Positions 1 to 33,169 of a DNA stretch of 37,901 nucleotides are shown here, one piece after another. The notes beneath the pieces are model-generated. The model ran no database searches. It saw only the letters and a list, made by a program, of their open reading frames with translations, and had not been told where the DNA came from. Position 1 is the first letter of the stretch; every line of letters begins with the position of its first letter. This DNA comes from a virus. Lineage: Duplodnaviria; Caudoviricetes. The position numbers and the translations under genes were made by a program. Location: IMG/VR virus record IMGVR_UViG_3300037722_001169, positions 1 through 37,901 of that record; one strand, 5' to 3'.

Positions 1-135
1 CGCATGAAGGCGCTGAACGCCGACCCGGAGTTCGCCGCCGCCCACCGCGAGCGCATGAAGGCGCTGAACGCCGACCCGGAGTTCGCCGCCGCCCACCGCG
101 CGCGCATGAAGGCGCTGCACGCCGACCCGGAGTTC
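1..135 (+). repeat. 51-bp in-frame tandem repeat, about 2.6 copies visible
   Basis: Near-identical units at 1-51, 52-102 and 103-135 (partial). Confidence 0.95.
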
Positions 136-270
136 AACCCGCTCGTCCTGCTCACCGACGCGGAACGGGCGGATTACGACGTGCTGAAAAAGGCCGGCTA
201 CAGCAGGTCCGACGCGCTGGCCGCGATCGGCCGGGCGGACCTGTCGCCGCACCGCGAAGCGGCGGAGTAG
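1..270 (+). CDS. Tandem-repeat protein, probably 5'-truncated by the window edge
   Basis: Frame open from base 1; 17-aa units RMKAL(N/H)ADPEFAAAHRE; TAG at 268-270. Confidence 0.75.
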   Translation, partial: RMKALNADPEFAAAHRERMKALNADPEFAAAHRARMKALHADPEFNPLVLLTDAERADYDVLKKAGYSRSDALAAIGRADLSPHREAAE

Positions 271-1987: not shown

Positions 1988-2536
1988 ATGATCGTGCTGG
2001 GCCTCGATCTGTCGAAGTCGCGCACCGGCTTCGCGCTGGACGGGCGCGAGGGCGCCTGCCCGCCGCGCGCGGGCAGCCGGCGCACGAGCGGCGTGACGCT
2101 CGGCCGGCTCGGCTTCGAGTACCAGGAGTGGCTCTACGAGTTCGCGAAGACGAACAGGGTCGAGCTGATCGCCTACGAGGCGCCGGCGATCGGCAGCCGC
2201 GGCGGCAAGAAGGATGGCGAGCGTTCGTTCGTGATGGACGAGGAGACGTCGATCGCGCTGATCGGCATGGCGTTCGCCACCGAGACGATCGCGCACGCGC
2301 TCGGCGTCCGTTGCGAGCGCGCGCATGTCCAGACGGTGCGAAAGTTCCTGGTGGGGCATGGCCGGCCGCCGAACCCGAAACGGGCGGTGATGGAGCGCTG
2401 CCGGCTGTTGGGCTGGCCGGCGCCGAACACCGACGCGACGGACGCGCTCGCCGTGTGGGCGTGGGCGAAGGCCGGTTTCGACCGCTCGTTCCGCCTCGAG
2501 GCGACGACGCCGCTGTTTTCGAGGGCGGCGCAATGA
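1988..2536 (+). CDS. RuvC-like Holliday junction resolvase
   Basis: MIVLGLDLSKSRTGFA, IAYEAP, VRKFLVGHG, NTDATDALAVW acidic catalytic pattern. Confidence 0.85.
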   Translation: MIVLGLDLSKSRTGFALDGREGACPPRAGSRRTSGVTLGRLGFEYQEWLYEFAKTNRVELIAYEAPAIGSRGGKKDGERSFVMDEETSIALIGMAFATETIAHALGVRCERAHVQTVRKFLVGHGRPPNPKRAVMERCRLLGWPAPNTDATDALAVWAWAKAGFDRSFRLEATTPLFSRAAQ

Positions 2537-3177
2537 GCCGGGGCGAGAAAGGCGGCGCTCCGGGCTTCTGGACCGAGCCGGCGCGGGTCGACCGGCTGCG
2601 CGAGCTGTGGGGCGAGGGGCAGAGCGCCAAGCGGATCGCCGACACGCTGGCCGGCGAGTTCCACGACCACGAGATCACGCGGTCGTCGGTGATCGGCAAG
2701 GCGCATCGGCTCGGGCTGGCTTCGCGTCCGTCGCCGATCGCCGGCAAGGGCAGCGGCAAGCGGCCGAGGCGCAACCGCGGCAGCCGGGCCGCAAAGGCAG
2801 AGAGGGCGCTCGCACTGCCGAAACTGTTCGACGACGCGCCGGCAGTCGTCGTCACGCCGAAGCCCGGCAGGTCCGGGCACATGAACAGTTGCACGCGCAA
2901 CGTGAAGCCGCTGCCGGCCGACGAGGAGACCGACGACATGGAACCGCAGGCTCCGCGCAAGCTGTCGCCGAAGACGGCCAACCCGCACACGGCGCCGCCG
3001 CGCGGCTGGTGCCAGTACCCACGCGGCGAGAGCCCGGCGTGGGATTTCTGCGGCGGGAAGGCGAAGCCCGGATCGAGCTTCTGTCCGGCACATCACGCGC
3101 GCTGCTGGGTGGCGGCGCCGACAAAGCCAAAGCGCCGGATACGCGACACCATGACGGCGATGCTGGAGGCGGGATGA
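2533..3177 (+). CDS. gcrA: GcrA-family cell-cycle regulator
   Basis: WTEPARVDRLRELWGEGQSAKRIA...TRSSVIGKAHRLGL N-domain; C-domain CQYPRGE...FCG...SFCPAH. Confidence 0.9.
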   Translation: MSRGEKGGAPGFWTEPARVDRLRELWGEGQSAKRIADTLAGEFHDHEITRSSVIGKAHRLGLASRPSPIAGKGSGKRPRRNRGSRAAKAERALALPKLFDDAPAVVVTPKPGRSGHMNSCTRNVKPLPADEETDDMEPQAPRKLSPKTANPHTAPPRGWCQYPRGESPAWDFCGGKAKPGSSFCPAHHARCWVAAPTKPKRRIRDTMTAMLEAG

Positions 3178-18057: not shown

Positions 18058-19020
18058 ATGGCTCCTCCGAGCAACACACTGACTGCCTACGACGCGATAG
18101 GCAACCGCGAAGACCTCTCCGATATCATCTACGATATCAGTCCGACCGACACACCGTTCCTGAACGGCATCCCGACGACCGACGCGACGGCCGTCAACCA
18201 CGAATGGCAGACGCACGCCCTCACGGCGGCGACGGCCGACAACAAGGTCGAGGAAGGTCTCGACGCTTCTACCGACGCCTCGACGACGACGACCCGGCGC
18301 GCCAACCGGACGCAGATTTCCGACAAGGTTCCGCGCGTGTCCGGCACGCAGGAAGTCGTCAACAAGGCCGGTCGCCGGTCGGAAATGGGCTTCCAGGTCA
18401 CCAATAAGGCGCGCGAGTTGAAGCGCGATATGGAAATGCGTCTGGTCTGCAACCAGGCGAAGGTGACAGGAGCGTCCGGCACGGCTGCCGAAACGGCGGG
18501 CGTCCTGTCGTGGCTGAAGACCAACGAGTCGGTCGGCGCCGGCGGGTCCGCGCCCTCGGCGGCGGACGGCGCGCAGACCCGTACCGCGGGGATGCAGCGG
18601 GCGTTCACGGAAGCGCAGATGAAAACCGTTCTGGCGGCGTGCTTCGACAGCGGCGGCGACCCGGACATGATCATCGTCAACGGCTTCAACAAGCAGGCGA
18701 TGTCCGGGTTTACCGGCAACGCGACGCGCATGGTCGGGGCGGGCGAGGAAAAGCTGTACGCCTCGATCGACGTCTACAAGTCGGACTTCGGCGATCTTCA
18801 GGTGGTCCCCAGCCGGTTCATGGAAACCCTGACGCAAAAGGGCGACCACGCGCTGATTCTGCAGATGGACATGTGGGCGATCGCCTATCTGCGCCCGTTC
18901 CAGCTGCATGATCTGTCGAAGACCGGCGACAGCGAGCAGAAGCAGTTGCTCGCCGAGTACGCGCTCGAGGCCCGCAACGAAGCGGCTTCGGGCGTGGTCG
19001 CGGACCTCACCGTCAGCTAA
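18058..19020 (+). CDS. Major capsid protein (DUF5309/SU10-like)
   Basis: GNREDLSDIIYDISPTDTPF, HEWQT, NRTQI, ELKRDME, YKSDFG, LSKTGDSE. Confidence 0.95.
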   Translation: MAPPSNTLTAYDAIGNREDLSDIIYDISPTDTPFLNGIPTTDATAVNHEWQTHALTAATADNKVEEGLDASTDASTTTTRRANRTQISDKVPRVSGTQEVVNKAGRRSEMGFQVTNKARELKRDMEMRLVCNQAKVTGASGTAAETAGVLSWLKTNESVGAGGSAPSAADGAQTRTAGMQRAFTEAQMKTVLAACFDSGGDPDMIIVNGFNKQAMSGFTGNATRMVGAGEEKLYASIDVYKSDFGDLQVVPSRFMETLTQKGDHALILQMDMWAIAYLRPFQLHDLSKTGDSEQKQLLAEYALEARNEAASGVVADLTVS

Positions 19021-19071: not shown

Positions 19072-19575
19072 ATGCGTGCATTCGCTGTTCTCCTGGCGGT
19101 CCTGTTTGCCGTCAGCCCGGCTTACGCGGGGTCCAACATCAAGCAGAAGGACACCGGGGCGACGGTCTGGTCCGACCAGAACAGTATCGACGTCCCGATC
19201 GGCAGTTCCGGGCTTGTGGTCGGTATCTCCGATCTTGCCACGTCGGCGACGGTGTTCGTGGTCACGCACAAGCCCGGCCGCGTTATCAAGGCGTATGTGG
19301 TCAGGAACCGTGCGGCGGATGCAGCGTCGGATTCGTCGATTCTGACGGTGTATATCGCGAAGTTCCTAACCTCGACGACGCAGTTCACGCCGATTTCGAT
19401 CGGCGCGGAACTGACGACGGCGACGCCGCATGACGGCGCGATATCGTCGATGTCGCCGGCCTATACCGGCGTCGAGGCGAAACAGGGCAGTGTCATCGCC
19501 GTTCACACCGATGGCGGCGAGACGTGTTCGGGTACCGTCGGCTGCGAGGCCAACGTCACCATCGTCATCGAGTGA
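19072..19575 (+). CDS. Capsid-accessory-like beta protein with Sec signal peptide
   Basis: GGGAG RBS; MRAFAVLLAVLFAVSPAYA|GSN; mature part ISDLATSATVFVV...GRVIKAYVV...IAVHTDGG...NVTIVIE resembles the small proteins that follow this capsid family. Confidence 0.7.
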   Translation: MRAFAVLLAVLFAVSPAYAGSNIKQKDTGATVWSDQNSIDVPIGSSGLVVGISDLATSATVFVVTHKPGRVIKAYVVRNRAADAASDSSILTVYIAKFLTSTTQFTPISIGAELTTATPHDGAISSMSPAYTGVEAKQGSVIAVHTDGGETCSGTVGCEANVTIVIE

Positions 19576-20618
19576 TCATCGCACGTTACGGGGCGGTCCT
19601 GCTGCTATGCGGGGCCGCCCTTTCGTTCGGGTATATCGCCAACCTCAACGCAACCAAGTGGGTTGCGCTGTACTGCGCGGCACTGGCCTGTTTCCTGTGG
19701 TTCCGCCCGGCTGCGGTGCGGCCGGTGCTCGCGTTCTGCGGCTATGTCCTGCTGAGCCTGGCGTGGTCGCCGGATCCGCTGGAAGGGCTGCTGCGGTTAC
19801 AGAATTTCGCCGTGCTGGCGACCGTAGTCGTCCTGTTCGCGCGCACGGAGTTGAACGCGGGGCTGTTCGGAGCCACGGGGATCGTCGGTGCGTTCGTGCT
19901 GACGCTGGCGTTCCCCGACTATCTCGGCGGCTTCGGCAATGAGAATTTTCGCTCCGATTTCGTCGTCATCTGCCTGCCGCTGACGCTCTGTCTCGGCTGG
20001 TGGTCGCTGCCGTTCCTGGTCCTGGGGGGCGGATTTCTGCTGGTGCACGGCACGCTGGCGGTGTTCGCGGCGGCGTTTTGCGCGGCGGCGCTGGTGTGTG
20101 TCATCGCGTGGCGGCGCGGCGCGCGCTACCCGGCGCTGCTGCTGACGGCGGCGGCGGCGAACTTCGCCGTGTTCGCCGATTTCGCGTATCAGTCGTGGTG
20201 GCACCGTCTCGAACTCTACCACAACACCCTCGTCCTGTGGTTTGAACGGCCGCTGTTCGGGCACGGAGTCGGGGCCTGGGATTACGTCTACCCGAGGGTG
20301 CAGGAAGCGCATTTATGGTTCTCGACACGCACCCTGATAGACGGCCCGGCGGTAATATCCGGCGCGGCGCATTCGGACGTATTGCAACTGCTCGCCGAAT
20401 ACGGGCTGATTGGCTTCGTGCTGGCCTTTTACGTGCTTTCGGGCGTGCGCTGGCGCACGCCGGCGGGGTTGGCGCTGGCGTCCGCCATTGGTGTCGCCTG
20501 CGTTGGCTTCCCGTTGCAGACGCCGGCGGCGGCGTTGGCCGGCGCCGTCGCGCTGGGTACGTCGTTGCGTGGAGCGCGGTACTGGCTGCCCTTTGCGTTT
20601 CGGGCGGATACTGGATAG
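19572..20618 (+). CDS. O-antigen ligase / O-oligosaccharyltransferase-like (Wzy_C) membrane protein
   Basis: GTGA coupling; many hydrophobic helices; GGFGNENF, HRLELY...RPLFGHGVGAW, AHSDVLQLLAEYGLIG, GFPLQTPA. Confidence 0.85.
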   Translation: MIIARYGAVLLLCGAALSFGYIANLNATKWVALYCAALACFLWFRPAAVRPVLAFCGYVLLSLAWSPDPLEGLLRLQNFAVLATVVVLFARTELNAGLFGATGIVGAFVLTLAFPDYLGGFGNENFRSDFVVICLPLTLCLGWWSLPFLVLGGGFLLVHGTLAVFAAAFCAAALVCVIAWRRGARYPALLLTAAAANFAVFADFAYQSWWHRLELYHNTLVLWFERPLFGHGVGAWDYVYPRVQEAHLWFSTRTLIDGPAVISGAAHSDVLQLLAEYGLIGFVLAFYVLSGVRWRTPAGLALASAIGVACVGFPLQTPAAALAGAVALGTSLRGARYWLPFAFRADTG

Positions 20619-21037
20619 TAGCGGAACGTCAGTTCACCTACGCGCGCGCCTATGCCGGTGTCGATGCGGTGCTGTTCGTGCAGCACGTCAACCGGGCGAT
20701 GCAGGTCTATCGTCTGGACAACAGGTACCGGCTTCATATCGCGCTGGCGATGGCGAACCTGCTGAAATCGGGGCTGGAAGTCCGCACCGACGACCGGACC
20801 ATGGACCGGGTGCACGAAATCGCGTCGTCGGCGTCGCCGTGGTTGCCGGCGGTGCTGGTATTACGGGCCGAATATCTCATCAACGCGCAACGGTGCGGCC
20901 CCGAGCTGGACCGCATCGTCGATTATCTCAAACGGCGGGTCACGATGCAGGCGGCGTCGGGGCAGGTATGGAGGTACTATCATGAGGAATCTGCTTGCGG
21001 CAGTGCTCGTCCTCTGGGCGGGAGCGGCGCACGCTGA
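20555..21037 (+). CDS. Probable C-terminal continuation of the Wzy_C protein in the -1 frame (TM helix plus helical domain)
   Basis: GYVVAWSAVLAALCVSGGYWIVAERQF then TPR-like helices; no good independent start; boundary approximate. Confidence 0.55.
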   Translation, partial: GYVVAWSAVLAALCVSGGYWIVAERQFTYARAYAGVDAVLFVQHVNRAMQVYRLDNRYRLHIALAMANLLKSGLEVRTDDRTMDRVHEIASSASPWLPAVLVLRAEYLINAQRCGPELDRIVDYLKRRVTMQAASGQVWRYYHEESACGSARPLGGSGAR

Positions 21038-21335
21038 AGGCCCGTATACGGTCGTCACGTCGGAAGACGAGACGCTGGCGGTGACAGGTGTCACGAGCTC
21101 GGACATCCAGGGGCCGTACGACGCCATCCGCCTTGTCTGCACGGTGGATTGCCGGGTCGCGGTGCTGACGACGCCGCTGCTCGAGGTCGGCGGCGTGACG
21201 GGAACGCACCCGGCGAGCGTGCCGATCTTCCTGCCGGAGGACACGCCGTTCGAGGTAAGGCCCGGCGCCGGCCGCGTCATCGTGGTCGGCCATGGCGCCT
21301 CGGGCACTCTCAACATCCTCACCTTGTCGAAGTGA
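20982..21335 (+). CDS. Small capsid-accessory-like protein with Sec signal peptide
   Basis: GGAGG RBS; MRNLLAAVLVLWAGAAHA|EGP; IRLVCTVDC...IFLPEDTP...SGTLNILTL. Confidence 0.75.
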   Translation: MRNLLAAVLVLWAGAAHAEGPYTVVTSEDETLAVTGVTSSDIQGPYDAIRLVCTVDCRVAVLTTPLLEVGGVTGTHPASVPIFLPEDTPFEVRPGAGRVIVVGHGASGTLNILTLSK

Positions 21336-21661
21336 TGCGCGCCCTTCTCGATCAGTGGGGCGGTCTCCTCACCTATTTCGAGCAAGGCGAGCGGCCCGAC
21401 GATATCCGGGTGCGGACGTGGCAGGCGAACGATCCGTTCCTGGAACAGAACCGGCGCGAACGCAACGCCGGGCATAATCCCAAATCCGATTTCCGCAAGG
21501 TGGCGTCGATCCCGGCAGGACTGCAACTGGAGCTGATCCGTCAGCACGGCATGCGGCCGGGCGAGTTCTACCGGAGACCGGTGAAGGAACAGCTCGACTT
21601 CTGGAAGCGGATTTACATGGACCGGGACTATTCGCAGCTCCGGACGAGTGACCGGGTATGA
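21335..21661 (+). CDS. Conserved head-region phage protein
   Basis: TGATG coupling; DPFLEQNRRERN...FRKVASIP...DRDYSQLRT. Confidence 0.8.
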   Translation: MRALLDQWGGLLTYFEQGERPDDIRVRTWQANDPFLEQNRRERNAGHNPKSDFRKVASIPAGLQLELIRQHGMRPGEFYRRPVKEQLDFWKRIYMDRDYSQLRTSDRV

Positions 21662-22566
21662 GCATCAGCAATTACGGCGAATTGAAAACCGCCGTCGCCA
21701 ATTACCTCTCGCGTGACGACCTCGAAGACCGTATCCCCGAGTTCATCGCGCTCGCCGAGGACCGGCTGGCGGTCAAGCTCCGCATCGAGCCGACGACGCA
21801 ACACACGCCGATCATGCTCCGCGCTCCGGTGGCCATCGCGGCGTCGGAAATCGGCGGTACCGCCAATGCGATGACGTTCACCCCGGCAACGGCGGCGACG
21901 GCCTACAATCTCGGTGATTCGTACTCGTTCACCTATCCGTTCACGCAGAACGAGCTCGCCTCGACGACGACGGTCGATGTTTCCGGTCTCGGGGCCAAGG
22001 AAATCGGCTACCGAAGGGCGTGGGGCGTCAGGGAAAGCGCGCGGTCGGGGACGTTGGTCAAGGATTATCCGACGAACATCGTCTATGACACAGTGGCTTT
22101 TGTTCTGGCGCCGGCGGGCGGGTACGTCATTCCGGGCGAGATGGTCGAAATCCGGTCGGCCTATCTCGACACCACCAACAAGCGCCTCGAATACTATCCC
22201 CCTCCCGATTTCTGGAACCGGGCGGCCGTGGGCGACACGGGCGAACCGAAAATCTACACCATCGAGGGCGCTTTCTTCGTCGTCGCGCCGGTCCCCACGA
22301 AAACCTACGCAGTACGGATGACGGGGTCGCAGAGATTGTTCGACCTGTCCTCGGATACCGACGCGGGCTGGACGATGACGAATGCGGCGGGTTTGCTTCT
22401 GTACGGCGCCTTGATTGAAGCGTCCGTCTATATCGAAGACGACGGCCGCGCGCTGACGTGGGCGACGATGTACGACGACCTGCTCGACGAGCACAAGAAG
22501 GCTGACCGGTACTATCGTTACCCGAGAGGCAGGGCGATCATGCGTTCGGACGTGAAGGGCGGATAG
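21658..22566 (+). CDS. Head-tail adaptor protein with an inserted domain
   Basis: SISNYGELKTAVANYLSRDDL..RIPEFIALAE N-terminus; GEPKIYTI, LLLYGALIEA C-terminus; about 95 extra residues in the middle. Confidence 0.8.
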   Translation: MSISNYGELKTAVANYLSRDDLEDRIPEFIALAEDRLAVKLRIEPTTQHTPIMLRAPVAIAASEIGGTANAMTFTPATAATAYNLGDSYSFTYPFTQNELASTTTVDVSGLGAKEIGYRRAWGVRESARSGTLVKDYPTNIVYDTVAFVLAPAGGYVIPGEMVEIRSAYLDTTNKRLEYYPPPDFWNRAAVGDTGEPKIYTIEGAFFVVAPVPTKTYAVRMTGSQRLFDLSSDTDAGWTMTNAAGLLLYGALIEASVYIEDDGRALTWATMYDDLLDEHKKADRYYRYPRGRAIMRSDVKGG

Positions 22567-23309
22567 AAGGTCCGGGCGAACCTGTTGGCGTAATAGTGGG
22601 AAAGCATTTCCGCTGTAGGGACGAAGCGCGTCAGGAACTCCCGGTACAGACTGGCATAGGGCTTCGTGTCCGACCGGTTGGCGTCGATCCGCTCCAGACC
22701 GGGAAATATCTCGGCGAAGTGATCTTCGAGGGATTCGAAGCGGTAGACCGTGAATTTGCCGAACCGGATCGTTCCGTACCGGTCGGGGTGGTGAGCGTAA
22801 ATGTTCACTCCGTGAACGGGGATGAAGTCGCGTTCGAACCAGTCCGCGAACCCGGTCACGGGACGCGCCCGGCGGCGGTCGAGATAGCGGTGTGAACGGC
22901 GCAACGCCTCGCGGTTCTCGAATACGTATCGAAACGCATCGAGCGCGTCGTCAACGGTCGCGACGTTGAAAACCGCCAGATTCTGGAACATCGCCGAGAC
23001 CGATTGCGTCATCGGATCGCGGTAGGCCGAGATTACCTGATCCGCGTCTGAAAACGCTTCGGCGCGGTCGCATTGCGACAGCACGGAAGCGGCGTTTTCA
23101 AGATCAGCATCGGGCAGGGCACAGGTTTCCCGCAGCTCGGTAATCGTCTCGGGCGACAGGAAATGATGACGCTCGATTCTTGCCGTGGGGAAGGTTGCCC
23201 GCAGGCTTTGCGCGACGGTTTGCGAGCCGGTCTTGCCGGACATGTGAACGAGAAAGGAGGCGGCCGGTGAAACTTTCCCAGCGTCTGGCCGCTGTCCCGC
23301 TTCAGGCAA
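22518..23309 (-). CDS. Sulfotransferase-fold protein (capsular polysaccharide synthesis-like)
   Basis: HMSGKTGSQT (5'-PSB-like loop), ISAYRDPMTQSVSAMFQN (3'-PB-like), WFERD, YRFESL, NRSDTKPYASLY; start uncertain. Confidence 0.75.
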   Translation of the reverse strand: MPEAGQRPDAGKVSPAASFLVHMSGKTGSQTVAQSLRATFPTARIERHHFLSPETITELRETCALPDADLENAASVLSQCDRAEAFSDADQVISAYRDPMTQSVSAMFQNLAVFNVATVDDALDAFRYVFENREALRRSHRYLDRRRARPVTGFADWFERDFIPVHGVNIYAHHPDRYGTIRFGKFTVYRFESLEDHFAEIFPGLERIDANRSDTKPYASLYREFLTRFVPTAEMLSHYYANRFARTFYPPFTSERMIALPLG

Positions 23310-31105: not shown

Positions 31106-31414
31106 TTGACGCGCACGGTCCTGCTATTCCTCCTCCTCGCCTCGCCGGTGCTGGCGCAGGAATCCCACCAGTGGATCATGGACGACACCCGCTATCGCAC
31201 GGAAGCGGGCAGTGGCTGCTGCGGCATCAGCCACTGCCGCCCGGCCGGACCGGGCGAGCTCGTGTTCACGAAGGATGGCTATCTGCACGTGCCGACGGGC
31301 ACGACGCTTCGCTACGGCAGCAAGGCGGTGTACCCGACGCGCGACCCGCAGGGGCGGGTGTTCATCTGCGTGACCGACGAGCTGGTGTGCGTGTTTCCGG
31401 GAGGCAGTACGTGA
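31106..31414 (+). CDS. Exported Cys-rich small protein
   Basis: GAGGAG RBS, TTG start; MTRTVLLFLLLASPVLA|QES; GCCGISHC...FIC...VCVFP. Confidence 0.8.
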   Translation: MTRTVLLFLLLASPVLAQESHQWIMDDTRYRTEAGSGCCGISHCRPAGPGELVFTKDGYLHVPTGTTLRYGSKAVYPTRDPQGRVFICVTDELVCVFPGGST

Positions 31415-31745: not shown

Positions 31746-31843
31746 CCGCGTACACGGTGCTGTCCGCCGCGATGCAGTCCATCACCGTCGGAGAAGCGAC
31801 GCTCATGGTCATGATCATGGTTTTGCTGGTGCGGCGGAAATGA
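31742..31843 (+). CDS. 33-aa hydrophobic peptide
   Basis: MTAYTVLSAAMQSITVGEATLMVMIMVLLVRRK; ATGA overlaps at both ends. Confidence 0.55.
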   Translation: MTAYTVLSAAMQSITVGEATLMVMIMVLLVRRK

Positions 31844-32337
31844 GCGGCCGCTTCGACCGCCGCATCGCCATTATCCTCGGCTGGGAAGGCGGCTACGTCA
31901 ACGACCCGCACGACAGGGGCGGGGAGACGCATTTCGGCATATCGAAGCGCCGGTACCCGATGCTCGATATCGCCGGCCTGACACTCGATGAAGCCAGGGC
32001 GATCTACAAGGCGGATTACTGGCAGCCGCTGCGCTGCGACGAACTCCCGGACGGTATCGACCTGCTGGTGCTGGACATCGGCGTTTTGCAGGGGCCTCGC
32101 GCAGCCGCGAAATGCCTCCAGAGAGCGGCGAAGGTAAAAGACGACGGTGTCATAGGCCCGGTGACTGTCGCCGCTGTACGCGCGATTACGGGGCGTCTGG
32201 CGCTATGCCGGGAGATAACGGCACGACGGTGCAAGAAATTCGCCGAGGCGCCGACCGTCGGCGTGCACGGGCTTGGCTGGTACCGGCGGGCAGTCGAGAT
32301 TCACGAGACAGCGCAATCGCTGGCGCAGAGCGGGTGA
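31840..32337 (+). CDS. Endolysin, glycoside hydrolase family 108
   Basis: EGGYVNDPHDRGGETHFGIS, IYKADYW, DGVIGPVT, GWYRR. Confidence 0.93.
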   Translation: MSGRFDRRIAIILGWEGGYVNDPHDRGGETHFGISKRRYPMLDIAGLTLDEARAIYKADYWQPLRCDELPDGIDLLVLDIGVLQGPRAAAKCLQRAAKVKDDGVIGPVTVAAVRAITGRLALCREITARRCKKFAEAPTVGVHGLGWYRRAVEIHETAQSLAQSG

Positions 32338-32392
32338 AGTGCTGCCGGACCGCCCCTCTCCCAACCCGCCTCTACAGCAAAGGGTATCGGTT

Positions 32393-32626
32393 ATGAGCCG
32401 TGTCGGCAGGCGGAAGCCCTACACGCAAATTGGTATTCGCAGGAAGACTTGCCAGCGGTGCGGAGCGCCGGCCCGATTCCAATGGAATTGCTGCGCGAAC
32501 GATAACTTGTGGGTTCCGGTCTGCGCCGCTTGTGATGTCCGGTTGAACGAACTCGCGCTGGAGTTTTTCCGCATTCCGGGCCAAAAGGCGCTTTTGCGCC
32601 GTTACCAATCCCGGCTGACCGGCTGA
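32393..32626 (+). CDS. Small zinc-finger protein inside the lysis cassette
   Basis: MSRVGRRKPY...CQRCG...QWNCCA...CAACD. Confidence 0.65.
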   Translation: MSRVGRRKPYTQIGIRRKTCQRCGAPARFQWNCCANDNLWVPVCAACDVRLNELALEFFRIPGQKALLRRYQSRLTG

Positions 32627-32653
32627 CTGACTGAACAGCAAAGGAGTCCTGCC

Positions 32654-32848
32654 ATGGACAGCAAAGCTTGGTTTCAAAGCAAGACGCTCTGGGCCAACCT
32701 CATCGCCGGCGCCGTTACCATTGCCGGCGTGTTCGGCCTCGACCTCGGGCTTGACGAAACCATGCAGGCGCAACTCGTCGCCGGCGTCATGGTCGTCGTC
32801 AACATCGTGCTCCGTCTCGTCACCGACAAGCCGATTGCGCCGAAGTGA
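32654..32848 (+). CDS. Holin-like two-TM protein
   Basis: AAGGAG RBS; KAWFQSKTLWAN, two TM helices, NIVLRLVTDKPI. Confidence 0.75.
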   Translation: MDSKAWFQSKTLWANLIAGAVTIAGVFGLDLGLDETMQAQLVAGVMVVVNIVLRLVTDKPIAPK

Positions 32849-33060
32849 CATGGTTGCGCGTCCTCGCTGGTCCGGTCCTCGACTTTCTCGGGAAGGTATT
32901 TCCTTGGGTAGCCGGCTTCTGGATGGGCAGAAAAGCACAGCGAGGCGATGATGCGCGCGAGGCTCTCGACCAGATCGGCAAGGCGGCTGATGCTGCCAAT
33001 CGCGTTGAGCTTGATGACGCTTACCGCGACAAGTTGCGCGACAAGTACAGGCGGCGTTAA
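32845..33060 (+). CDS. i-spanin-like protein
   Basis: Hydrophobic N-terminus then helical region; overlaps a lipoprotein ORF. Confidence 0.55.
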   Translation: MTWLRVLAGPVLDFLGKVFPWVAGFWMGRKAQRGDDAREALDQIGKAADAANRVELDDAYRDKLRDKYRRR

Positions 33061-33169
33061 CGCATTCTGTGTCGTGGTCGGGCCGCCGCCGCCCGAGATG
33101 ATCCCGGCACCCGGTGAGCCGGCGGGGTGGATCGATACCTATCTCGCGGTTTTCGACGCCACGTGTTGA
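32948..33169 (+). CDS. o-spanin-like lipoprotein
   Basis: Basic N-region, hydrophobic core, lipobox-like ATSC; Pro-rich; overlaps the i-spanin in another frame. Confidence 0.65.
   Translation: MMRARLSTRSARRLMLPIALSLMTLTATSCATSTGGVNAFCVVVGPPPPEMIPAPGEPAGWIDTYLAVFDATC

What the first reader, a model, noticed from the sequence alone, without database searches (positions are those of the whole stretch)
19072..21335. Candidate periplasmic virion-glycosylation system: an O-oligosaccharyltransferase-like gene wedged between two signal-peptide-bearing capsid-accessory genes
Seen: directly after the major capsid gene come three overlapping genes. They encode a Ser/Thr-rich beta protein with signal MRAFAVLLAVLFAVSPAYA|, a multi-TM protein with Wzy_C motifs (RPLFGHGVG, AHSDVLQLLAEYG), and a second small beta protein with signal MRNLLAAVLVLWAGAAHA|. 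Both small proteins have a Cys pair (CSGTVGC, CTVDC). Established: Wzy_C enzymes (WaaL, PglL, TfpO/PilO) transfer glycans from undecaprenyl-PP carriers on the periplasmic face, whereas capsids assemble in the cytoplasm. Inference: the two small proteins resemble decoration-type proteins I recall at this position without signal peptides. The phage may therefore export surface parts, have them glycosylated with host lipid-linked glycan and disulfide-bonded, and load them onto capsids when the inner membrane fails at lysis. Placement inside the late head operon fits this better than ordinary lysogenic serotype conversion.
Basis: partly seen in the sequence, partly recalled or inferred. Interest (0 to 1): 0.95.

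Follow-up and report, generated by a model that had tools for sequence, protein, structure and literature searches.

The report
Phage exports and sugar-coats outer parts
An uncultured sediment phage puts predicted bacterial export signals on two capsid-decoration-like proteins and its tail fibre, and places a sugar-transferring membrane enzyme gene between the first two, so these outer parts are likely finished outside the cytoplasm, possibly sugar-coated, and would join the particle only when the cell bursts.

Summary
The window is an SU10-like podophage, likely of an alphaproteobacterium. Behind the major capsid gene lie gene A (signal peptide, jelly roll, modelled as a trimer), a Wzy_C gene and gene B (signal peptide, jelly roll). 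Correction: the Wzy_C gene is split by a frame change; the catalytic core is whole, and relatives break at the same junction. Extension: the tail fibre also has a signal peptide. Gene A with a signal peptide is followed by this Wzy_C family in 30 of 30 loci, signal-less homologues in 0 of 47; this is about one evolutionary switch, plus a second setting in HK97-type siphoviruses. Exported forms never carry an odd number of cysteines. One enzyme-bearing siphovirus has a signal peptide on a RcGTA-type spike base, and signal-bearing proteins are MS-annotated virion parts of Cellulophaga phage phi10:1. Export is well supported and virion membership likely. Protein glycosylation is inferred only: the enzyme resembles PglL more than WaaL but fails the PglL and TfpO/TfpM family tests. 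I found no paper describing this; earlier notes of this scan report it in other genomes.

The parts
18058..19020 (+). SU10-type major capsid protein, no signal peptide; presumed docking surface
   Evidence: PF17236 E 8e-91; PHROG major head
19072..19575 (+). Gene A: 19-aa predicted Sec signal peptide (19072-19128) plus 148-aa jelly-roll protein with one Cys pair; likely trimeric capsid cement or short head fibre
   Evidence: AlphaFold pLDDT 86; structural hits to cement proteins tied with carbohydrate-binding modules; same domain fused to cement Pfams in 2 tested proteins; trimer model 0.87 vs best control 0.00
19572..20618 (+). Wzy_C (GT-C) enzyme core, 348 aa, multi-pass membrane protein with the family's invariant Arg and His
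   Evidence: PF04932 34.6 bits; invariant residues in 28 of 28 rows; best PDB sequence match 9rmk oligosaccharyltransferase
20549..21037 (+). Last membrane helix and C-terminal helical domain of the same enzyme, in another reading frame, without a clear ATG/GTG/TTG start; overlaps gene B by 56 nt
   Evidence: codon-position GC; family profile positions 371-512, E 1.6e-25; same frame as the core in L001 and L003
20982..21335 (+). Gene B: 18-aa predicted Sec signal peptide (20982-21035) plus 99-aa jelly roll with CxxxC; possible vertex or decoration protein
   Evidence: AlphaFold pLDDT 73; only generic fold hits, best Z 8.5; signal-less homologues in control loci
21335..21661 (+). Conserved small protein without signal peptide, present in loci with and without the enzyme
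   Evidence: phrog_3982
21658..22566 (+). SU10-type head-tail adaptor, no signal peptide; closes the cassette
   Evidence: PF24175
30041..31057 (+). Tail fibre with a predicted 20-aa Sec signal peptide in front of the conserved fibre-attachment N-terminus
   Evidence: PHROG tail and tail-fibre hits; leader; leader also in enzyme-bearing G012, absent in 9 of 9 control records with a visible start
31840..33169 (+). Lysis cassette: signal-less glycoside hydrolase 108 endolysin (31840-32337), two-helix holin-like gene (32654-32848), spanin-like pair (32845-33060, 32951-33169)
   Evidence: PF05838; holin and spanin roles read from hydropathy and a lipobox by eye

Best explanation
This phage carries a late-operon cassette whose two small capsid-decoration-like proteins, and its tail fibre, are predicted to be exported to the periplasm, where the phage's own Wzy_C enzyme likely attaches a host-made sugar chain to at least the first of them, after which they would bind the finished particles once lysis opens the inner membrane. 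Shown: the leaders, gene order, homology to signal-less proteins at the same positions, co-occurrence with the enzyme, cysteine parity. Established: Wzy_C enzymes take glycans from undecaprenyl-pyrophosphate on the periplasmic face, and tailed-phage heads assemble in the cytoplasm. Inferred: cleavage of the leaders, protein as acceptor, joining at lysis. The phage has no detected glycan-synthesis gene, so the glycan would be the host's. The likeliest use is a host-like glycan shell that changes what the particle sticks to; this last step is a guess.
For: Co-occurrence: gene A with leader is followed by this enzyme family in 30 of 30 loci with at least 250 nt downstream (23 of them found through gene A, not the enzyme; 23 of 23 after dereplication) and signal-less homologues in 0 of 47 (0 of 22); 0 of 13 control genomes hold the enzyme anywhere. 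The pair recurs in HK97-type siphoviruses (L117-L121, L068). Export: odd cysteine counts in 0 of 24 exported gene A cores vs 11 of 22 signal-less ones, and 0 of 8 vs 9 of 27 for gene B. Virion link: tail-fibre leader in 2 of 2 enzyme-bearing records vs 0 of 9 controls; in G005 a leader precedes a full NCBIfam spike_base match (residues 27-111, 93.7 bits, cut-off 28), a family whose founder docks on capsid pentamers by its N-terminus (PMC7296036, passages); gene A's domain is fused to capsid-cement Pfams PF22758 and PF09956 and models as a trimer, score 0.87, best control 0.00, partner pLDDT at least 72, runs agreeing in at least 70% of contacts, a mark reached by 20 of 30 solved pairs and 1 of 23 solved single chains, possibly helped by likeness to solved trimers; phi10:1 gp091-094 are annotated as MS/MS-detected structural proteins and all 4 carry such leaders. 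Enzyme: profile matches 9rmk oligosaccharyltransferase at E 5e-7 while WaaL 7tpg scores E 0.012 or is not listed; C-terminal periplasmic-type domain as in PglL/PglS; acceptor-then-enzyme gene order as in pilin-OTase pairs (PMC3643930, PMC9829042).
Against: No glycopeptide, virion proteome, RNA or isolate exists for this group (no INPHARED match). On the capsid tree all signal-less loci lie on one side of one branch (SH-aLRT 93, quick tree), so the podophage counts are about one event. The enzyme has no PglL_A or Wzy_C_2 Pfam hit, the column of PglL E404 is acidic in only 4 of 24 rows and Gly here, and genes A and B do not end in Ser/Thr as TfpO/TfpM substrates do. No glycosylation motif specific to exported forms was found; Ser+Thr content barely differs. 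The window's enzyme is split. Gene B lacks the leader in enzyme-bearing L004. Four siphovirus fragments (8-34% complete) have a leader-bearing head fibre and no Wzy_C in the record. Fold hits for both small proteins are at background level (best Z 8.8 and 8.5) and tie with carbohydrate-binding modules and cupins.
Confidence: 0.5

Rival explanations
1. Exported decoys or a glycan sink: former decoration proteins are exported and glycosylated but never join virions. They would drain lipid-linked O-units or soak up competing phages and debris at lysis.
For: Leaders send the proteins away from where heads are built; no virion proteome exists; fold hits are not specific to capsid proteins.
Against: The only detected tail fibre also has a leader and a podophage needs one; no second, signal-less copy of gene A or B was found in the window; leader-bearing proteins are MS-annotated virion parts in phi10:1.
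Confidence: 0.2
2. The parts are exported for folding and disulfide formation and do join virions, but the enzyme acts on the envelope as a WaaL- or Wzy-like ligase or polymerase late in infection, altering LPS so that progeny do not re-adsorb.
For: Wzy_C alone cannot separate these activities (PMC3643930); PglL family tests fail; close cellular homologues lie beside glycosyltransferase and sugar genes in an Azospirillum MAG (L160); leaders occur in phages without the enzyme.
Against: It does not explain why the enzyme gene always follows the leader-bearing gene A, in two capsid lineages, and never the signal-less form; sequence match favours the oligosaccharyltransferase over WaaL.
Confidence: 0.17
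3. Ordinary lysogenic serotype-conversion moron, like Wzy-beta of Pseudomonas phage D3, sitting in the head operon by chance.
For: Phage-borne Wzy_C genes of this kind are known (D3, phi297, VarioGold; PMC9658991, passages).
Against: The VarioGold gene lies on the opposite strand outside the late module, whereas this one overlaps the stop of gene A on the late strand; no consensus promoter directly upstream (weak); no tyrosine integrase or resolvase in G000 (CheckV 100%) or G005 (94%); no tblastn match to INPHARED phages at E 1e-3.
Confidence: 0.05
4. The family works as in the best explanation, but in this phage the enzyme is crippled by the frame change and the exported parts stay bare or rely on a host enzyme. 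Not exclusive of the readings above.
For: Frame change near 20560 with about 20 residues fewer than intact relatives and no clear start for the second part.
Against: Breaks at this same junction occur in 3 of 30 loci that span it (window, L005 with its own ATG, L159) and 12 of 35 database homologues end there; the second part keeps coding-type GC; WaaL and TfpM work without such a domain.
Confidence: 0.25

Closest known systems
Acceptor plus dedicated O-oligosaccharyltransferase gene pairs (pilA-tfpO/pilO, pilin-tfpM, comP-pglS) and PglL (PMC9829042, PMC3643930, PMC12800693)
   Same: Wzy_C domain with conserved Arg and His; exported small protein encoded directly upstream; intact members are mostly 440-590 aa with a C-terminal domain like PglL/PglS; best PDB sequence match is an oligosaccharyltransferase (9rmk).
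   Different: Phage-encoded, in a head operon; the upstream protein is a jelly-roll decoration homologue, not a pilin; no PglL-specific Pfam hit, E404 column not conserved, no C-terminal Ser/Thr on genes A or B.
Glycosylated mycobacteriophage virions (Che8, Rita; Freeman et al. 2023, known to me here only through passages of PMC11256854)
   Same: Phage genes put glycans on capsid proteins, forming a shield.
   Different: Those phages use ordinary glycosyltransferases on the major capsid protein (cytoplasmic action is my recall); here a lipid-carrier-dependent membrane enzyme and exported accessory parts are involved and the major capsid protein has no leader.
Cellulophaga phage phi10:1 gp091-gp094 (GenBank KC821618)
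   Same: Tailed-phage proteins annotated as MS/MS-detected structural proteins that begin with Sec-type leaders.
   Different: Other host phylum and phage type; no Wzy_C gene among the 39 features of the part I read (30000-53600); the record does not remark on the leaders.
RcGTA head-spike base Rcc01079 (PMC7296036) and jelly-roll cement proteins of BPP-1 (3j4u) and KHP40 (7dou)
   Same: Small jelly rolls on the capsid outside; a true spike_base member with a leader occurs in enzyme-bearing G005; gene A aligns to the cement proteins at Z 8.0 and 7.8.
   Different: Genes A and B of the window match none of these families by sequence, and the Z scores tie with unrelated folds.
Phage serotype-conversion Wzy_C genes (D3 Wzy-beta, phi297, VarioGold p25; PMC9658991)
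   Same: Phage-borne Wzy_C multi-pass membrane protein.
   Different: Those are moron-type genes of temperate phages; this one is coupled to a structural gene in phages with no detected integrase, with no sequence match at E 1e-3.

Membership tests
Wzy_C / GT-C lipid-linked glycan transferases | PF04932 above the curated cut-off in a multi-pass membrane protein | tested here: met
   34.6 bits vs 31.7; 5 of 6 first relatives also above
Wzy_C / GT-C lipid-linked glycan transferases | Conserved Arg and catalytic His of the large periplasmic loop | tested here: met
   invariant in 28 of 28 rows including the window; role of the His from PMC9829042 and PMC12800693
PglL/PglS O-oligosaccharyltransferases | PglL-specific profiles (PglL_A, Wzy_C_2) | tested here: not met
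   no such Pfam hit for the window at E 0.01, 6 relatives at E 0.1 or 6 further homologues at E 0.05
PglL/PglS O-oligosaccharyltransferases | Acidic residue at PglL E404 / PglS E379 | tested here: not met
   acidic in 4 of 24 rows with the motif, Gly in the window
PglL/PglS O-oligosaccharyltransferases | Large C-terminal periplasmic domain | tested here: met
   130-224 residues follow the last core motif in the 23 intact rows where the motif was found; present but in another frame in the window
PglL/PglS O-oligosaccharyltransferases | Transfer of glycan to protein Ser/Thr | not testable with these tools
   needs co-expression and glycoproteomics
TfpO/TfpM | NCBIfam TfpM cut-off and acceptor ending in Ser/Thr | tested here: not met
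   14-18 bits vs cut-off 600; gene A ends in Glu, gene B in Lys; only the tail fibre ends in Ser
WaaL O-antigen ligase / Wzy polymerase | Ligation to lipid A-core or polymerisation of O-units | not testable with these tools
   weak match to WaaL 7tpg (E 0.012; not listed) does not exclude it
Lysogenic conversion moron (D3 type) | Temperate phage and a separately transcribed cassette | tested here: not met
   no PF00589 or PF00239 in G000 or G005; start overlaps the upstream structural gene; plasmid-type lysogeny not excluded
Jelly-roll capsid cement / decoration proteins | Jelly-roll fold, oligomer, gene directly after the major capsid gene | tested here: met
   domain fused to PF22758 and PF09956 proteins
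Jelly-roll capsid cement / decoration proteins | Specific structural or sequence match to a solved cement protein | tested here: inconclusive
   3j4u_H Z 8.0, rmsd 3.3, 108 aligned; 7dou_4 Z 7.8, rmsd 4.3, 114 aligned; tied with unrelated modules
Jelly-roll capsid cement / decoration proteins | Presence on the virion | not testable with these tools
   no isolate
RcGTA-type spike base (NF048002) | NCBIfam match | tested here: not met
   no hit for window genes A or B or two signal-less gene B homologues; met for a leader-bearing gene of G005
Sec-exported proteins | Basic n-region, hydrophobic core, AxA site, ending where signal-less homologues begin | tested here: met
   rule-based and by alignment; SignalP and N-terminal sequencing not available

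The most novel reading that the evidence does not exclude
A group of tailed phages runs a two-compartment assembly line: heads and tail cores are built in the cytoplasm, while cement, vertex and tail-fibre proteins are secreted, disulfide-bonded and glycosylated with host lipid-linked glycan by a phage-encoded oligosaccharyltransferase of a new family, and the particle is completed only when lysis mixes the compartments. The acceptor-enzyme pair is a mobile module shared by podo- and siphoviruses.
Probability: 0.45. Interest if true: 0.93.

Novelty: categorically new. Interest (0 to 1): 0.82.

Why it matters
Tailed phages are taught to assemble wholly in the cytoplasm. A cassette that exports outer virion parts and pairs them with a periplasm-facing glycan transferase would add a second compartment and a lysis-timed last step, and give virions a coat that changes with the host's glycan. 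It would also supply a new family of oligosaccharyltransferases with a small non-pilin acceptor next door, testable in standard glycoengineering strains without culturing the phage. The export half is well supported here and has overlooked proteomic precedent; the glycosylation half is a direct, cheap test.

Tried and rejected
No Pfam, PHROG or NCBIfam family for genes A or B; PDB sequence searches gave only chance hits; Foldseek gave no useful match. No cultured relative in INPHARED for gene A or the enzyme. No gene A relative in the GTDB genome scan. No RNA holder listed; runs X2 and X3 give only short pieces that do not cover the frame change. Ser/Thr richness rejected as evidence for glycosylation. 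Sequencing error as sole cause of the split is disfavoured (same junction in relatives); a conserved programmed frameshift is disfavoured because the shift is -1 here and +1 in L005 and L159 (frames). L159 lies in a MAG labelled Saccharibacteria but is a 4.6-kb phage fragment of 59% GC, so I do not take it as the host. HFTV1 (PMC12494034, passages) and a marine phage proteome paper (PMC12014285, passages) gave no precedent for export or virion glycosylation. The careful capsid tree did not finish; the quick tree is cited. Dropped before the count: 11 re-fetched copies of the same contigs, 5 leader-bearing loci with under 250 nt downstream, L070 (gene A itself frameshifted), and loci without gene A; the leader of L068 was set by hand.
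Full report
Setting. The window is a whole 37,901-base virus record, estimated 100% complete, with no tyrosine integrase or resolvase. It has an SU10-type portal, major capsid protein and adaptor, scaffold, nozzle-like, ejection and tail-fibre genes, a glycoside hydrolase 108 endolysin with holin- and spanin-like neighbours (by eye), and a GcrA homologue, which points to an alphaproteobacterial host (inference). The one run holding the whole stretch is a sediment metagenome and may be the source.

Observation. Genes A (19072-19575) and B (20982-21335) and their leaders and Cys pairs are as described. The middle gene hits Wzy_C above cut-off but is split: the core ends at 20618 and the last helix plus C-terminal domain run in another frame to 21037. 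Both parts share one frame in L001 and L003. The break is recurrent: 3 of 30 loci spanning the junction are split there (window, L005, L159, not dereplicated), and 12 of 35 database homologues stop at profile positions 357-376 (some come from short contigs). I read it as a tolerated fission of core and periplasmic domain; activity of this copy is open.

Conservation and co-variation. All 6 viral contigs found with the enzyme have capsid gene, leader-bearing gene A, enzyme. Searches with gene A motifs added 4 viral and 28 metagenome loci, some re-fetched. Controls came from the capsid gene (24 loci) and a signal-less gene B (46 loci, none with the enzyme or any long membrane-rich ORF). Among loci with gene A and at least 250 nt downstream, 30 of 30 leader-bearing ones have the enzyme next and 0 of 47 signal-less ones do; dereplicated at 80%, 23 of 23 and 0 of 22. 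The enzyme profile finds nothing in 13 of 13 control genomes, 8 of them at least 90% complete. The limit is kinship: on a quick capsid tree of 59 rows the signal-less loci fall on one side of a branch with SH-aLRT 93, so this is about one switch. A second setting exists: HK97-type siphoviruses L117-L121 (near-identical; G005, 94% complete) and L068 carry a longer leader-bearing head-fibre gene ending in the gene A domain, directly followed by the same enzyme family. Against a strict rule: of 9 other siphovirus loci of that scan that I listed, 4 have a leader on a related head-fibre gene lacking the gene A domain, with no Wzy_C in their 8-34% complete records. Gene B has a leader in 8 distinct enzyme-bearing lineages but not in L004.

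Are the leaders real? They were called by a hydropathy-and-charge rule and alignment, not SignalP. They end where signal-less homologues begin. Cysteine parity gives a separate line: exported cores have 0 or 2 cysteines in 24 of 24 (gene A) and 8 of 8 (gene B), while 11 of 22 and 9 of 27 signal-less cores have odd numbers; CxxxC occurs in 5 of 8 vs 0 of 27 gene B cores (rows are related, so the p-values overstate). Ser+Thr content differs little.

Are they virion parts? The tail fibre of the window has a leader, as does that of G012, the only other enzyme-bearing record reaching it; 9 of 9 control fibres with a visible start have none. In G005 a 26-residue leader precedes a full-length NCBIfam spike_base match; the RcGTA founder is a jelly-roll pentamer that binds capsid pentamers by its N-termini (PMC7296036, passages). 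The gene A domain is widespread (1,818 clusters at E 0.001; 35 of 146 new top hits pass the leader rule, a few falsely) and is fused to two capsid-cement Pfams in 2 of the longer hits tested. Its model (pLDDT 86) is a jelly roll with a short N-terminal beta arm; cement proteins of BPP-1 and KHP40 are among the top structural hits but tie with carbohydrate-binding modules. A three-copy model scored 0.87 against 0.00 for the best control; 20 of 30 solved pairs and 1 of 23 single chains reach that mark, and likeness to solved trimers may help. Gene B (pLDDT 73) gives only generic jelly-roll hits. Following a lead from earlier scan notes I checked Cellulophaga phage phi10:1: gp091-094 are annotated as structural by MS/MS and 4 of 4 carry leaders, as does the neighbouring pectate lyase gp095, while 8 of 8 other structural genes checked do not. 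I saw only the GenBank note, not the spectra.

The enzyme. Arg and His of the periplasmic loop are invariant in 28 of 28 rows. The family profile's best PDB match is 9rmk, labelled oligosaccharyltransferase (E 2.5e-7 and 4.8e-7); WaaL 7tpg scores E 0.012 or is absent. That 9rmk is Neisseria PglL is my inference from its Glu at 404 (PMC12800693, passages). Two phage motifs fall on the two regions used to tell PglL from WaaL (171-201 and 395-420; PMC3643930, first sixth of the text), but the first lies in a stretch that is not significant alone, PglL-specific Pfams are not hit, and the E404 column is acidic in 4 of 24 rows. TfpM scores far below cut-off and its substrates end in Ser/Thr (PMC9829042, passages), unlike genes A and B. 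So it works like an acceptor-linked oligosaccharyltransferase by context but belongs to no named family. Of 4 genome hits, one is a phage fragment, one an Azospirillum MAG with two close homologues beside sugar genes, and one a distant Acidobacteriota homologue behind pilin-like genes (pilin motif read by eye). No glycan-synthesis gene was detected among 63 window translations scanned.

Mechanism. Late in infection genes A, B and the fibre are secreted and cleaved (predicted), form disulfides where they have them (inferred), and gene A receives host glycan from undecaprenyl-pyrophosphate through the coupled enzyme (inferred, about 0.6 given export). A holin with a signal-less endolysin would open the inner membrane and let these parts meet finished heads before spanins remove the outer membrane, or they bind in the lysate (inferred; large holin lesions and late attachment of tailspikes are recalled knowledge). 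Overall 0.5.

Comparison and novelty. Known neighbours are pilin-OTase gene pairs, glycosylated mycobacteriophages (seen through PMC11256854, passages) and D3-type conversion genes (PMC9658991, passages). Seven searches on phage glycosylation, export and ligases (listings and abstract starts only) returned no paper describing exported virion parts with a phage Wzy_C enzyme; the library lacks most subscription journals and I read no supplements. Earlier notes of this scan describe the same idea in other genomes; they are unchecked and not independent support. This report adds the matched signal-less controls, cysteine parity, the transfer between capsid lineages and the recurrent split.

Noticed in passing
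window 22518-23309, minus strand: A 263-aa gene on the opposite strand between adaptor and nozzle genes; its motifs recall a sulfotransferase-fold or capsule-synthesis protein (recalled, no Pfam hit). It could modify glycans.
   Followed up: partly
window 21658-22566; L001, L003, L006, L039, L051, L052: The head-tail adaptor is about 300 aa, against about 200-220 in most controls, through an insert similar to the tail-fibre N-terminal region; L048, L049 and L004 have the short form although they carry the enzyme.
   Followed up: partly
window 31106-31414: Small cysteine-rich protein with a signal peptide between the tail fibre and the lysis genes; no family hit.
   Followed up: no
window 2533-3177: Phage-borne GcrA cell-cycle regulator homologue (PF07750) next to a DNA methyltransferase gene.
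   Followed up: no
window 1-270: ORF made of three or more near-identical repeats of about 16 residues at the start of the record.
   Followed up: no
L068 2834-8335: HK97-type siphovirus with a 509-aa repeat-rich leader-bearing head fibre, two tandem Wzy_C genes and another leader-bearing gene behind them.
   Followed up: partly
L160 3363-8788: Cellular pair of close homologues of the phage enzyme flanking an IalB-family gene in an uncultured Azospirillum MAG; a possible donor or host-side counterpart.
   Followed up: partly
L044-L047 gene A; P0003, P0010, P0012-P0017: A subgroup of gene A has an extra hydrophobic stretch of about 25 residues in front of the usual leader, possibly a membrane anchor or second processing site.
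   Followed up: no
L004, L005 capsid genes; L013, L057, L069: Major capsid genes interrupted by insertions, in L005 holding endonuclease-like ORFs; likely introns.
   Followed up: no
L123 4870-5562; L130-L132: Siphovirus fragments with leader-bearing head fibres, and in L123 a further leader-bearing cysteine-rich gene in the tail region, without a Wzy_C neighbour.
   Followed up: partly
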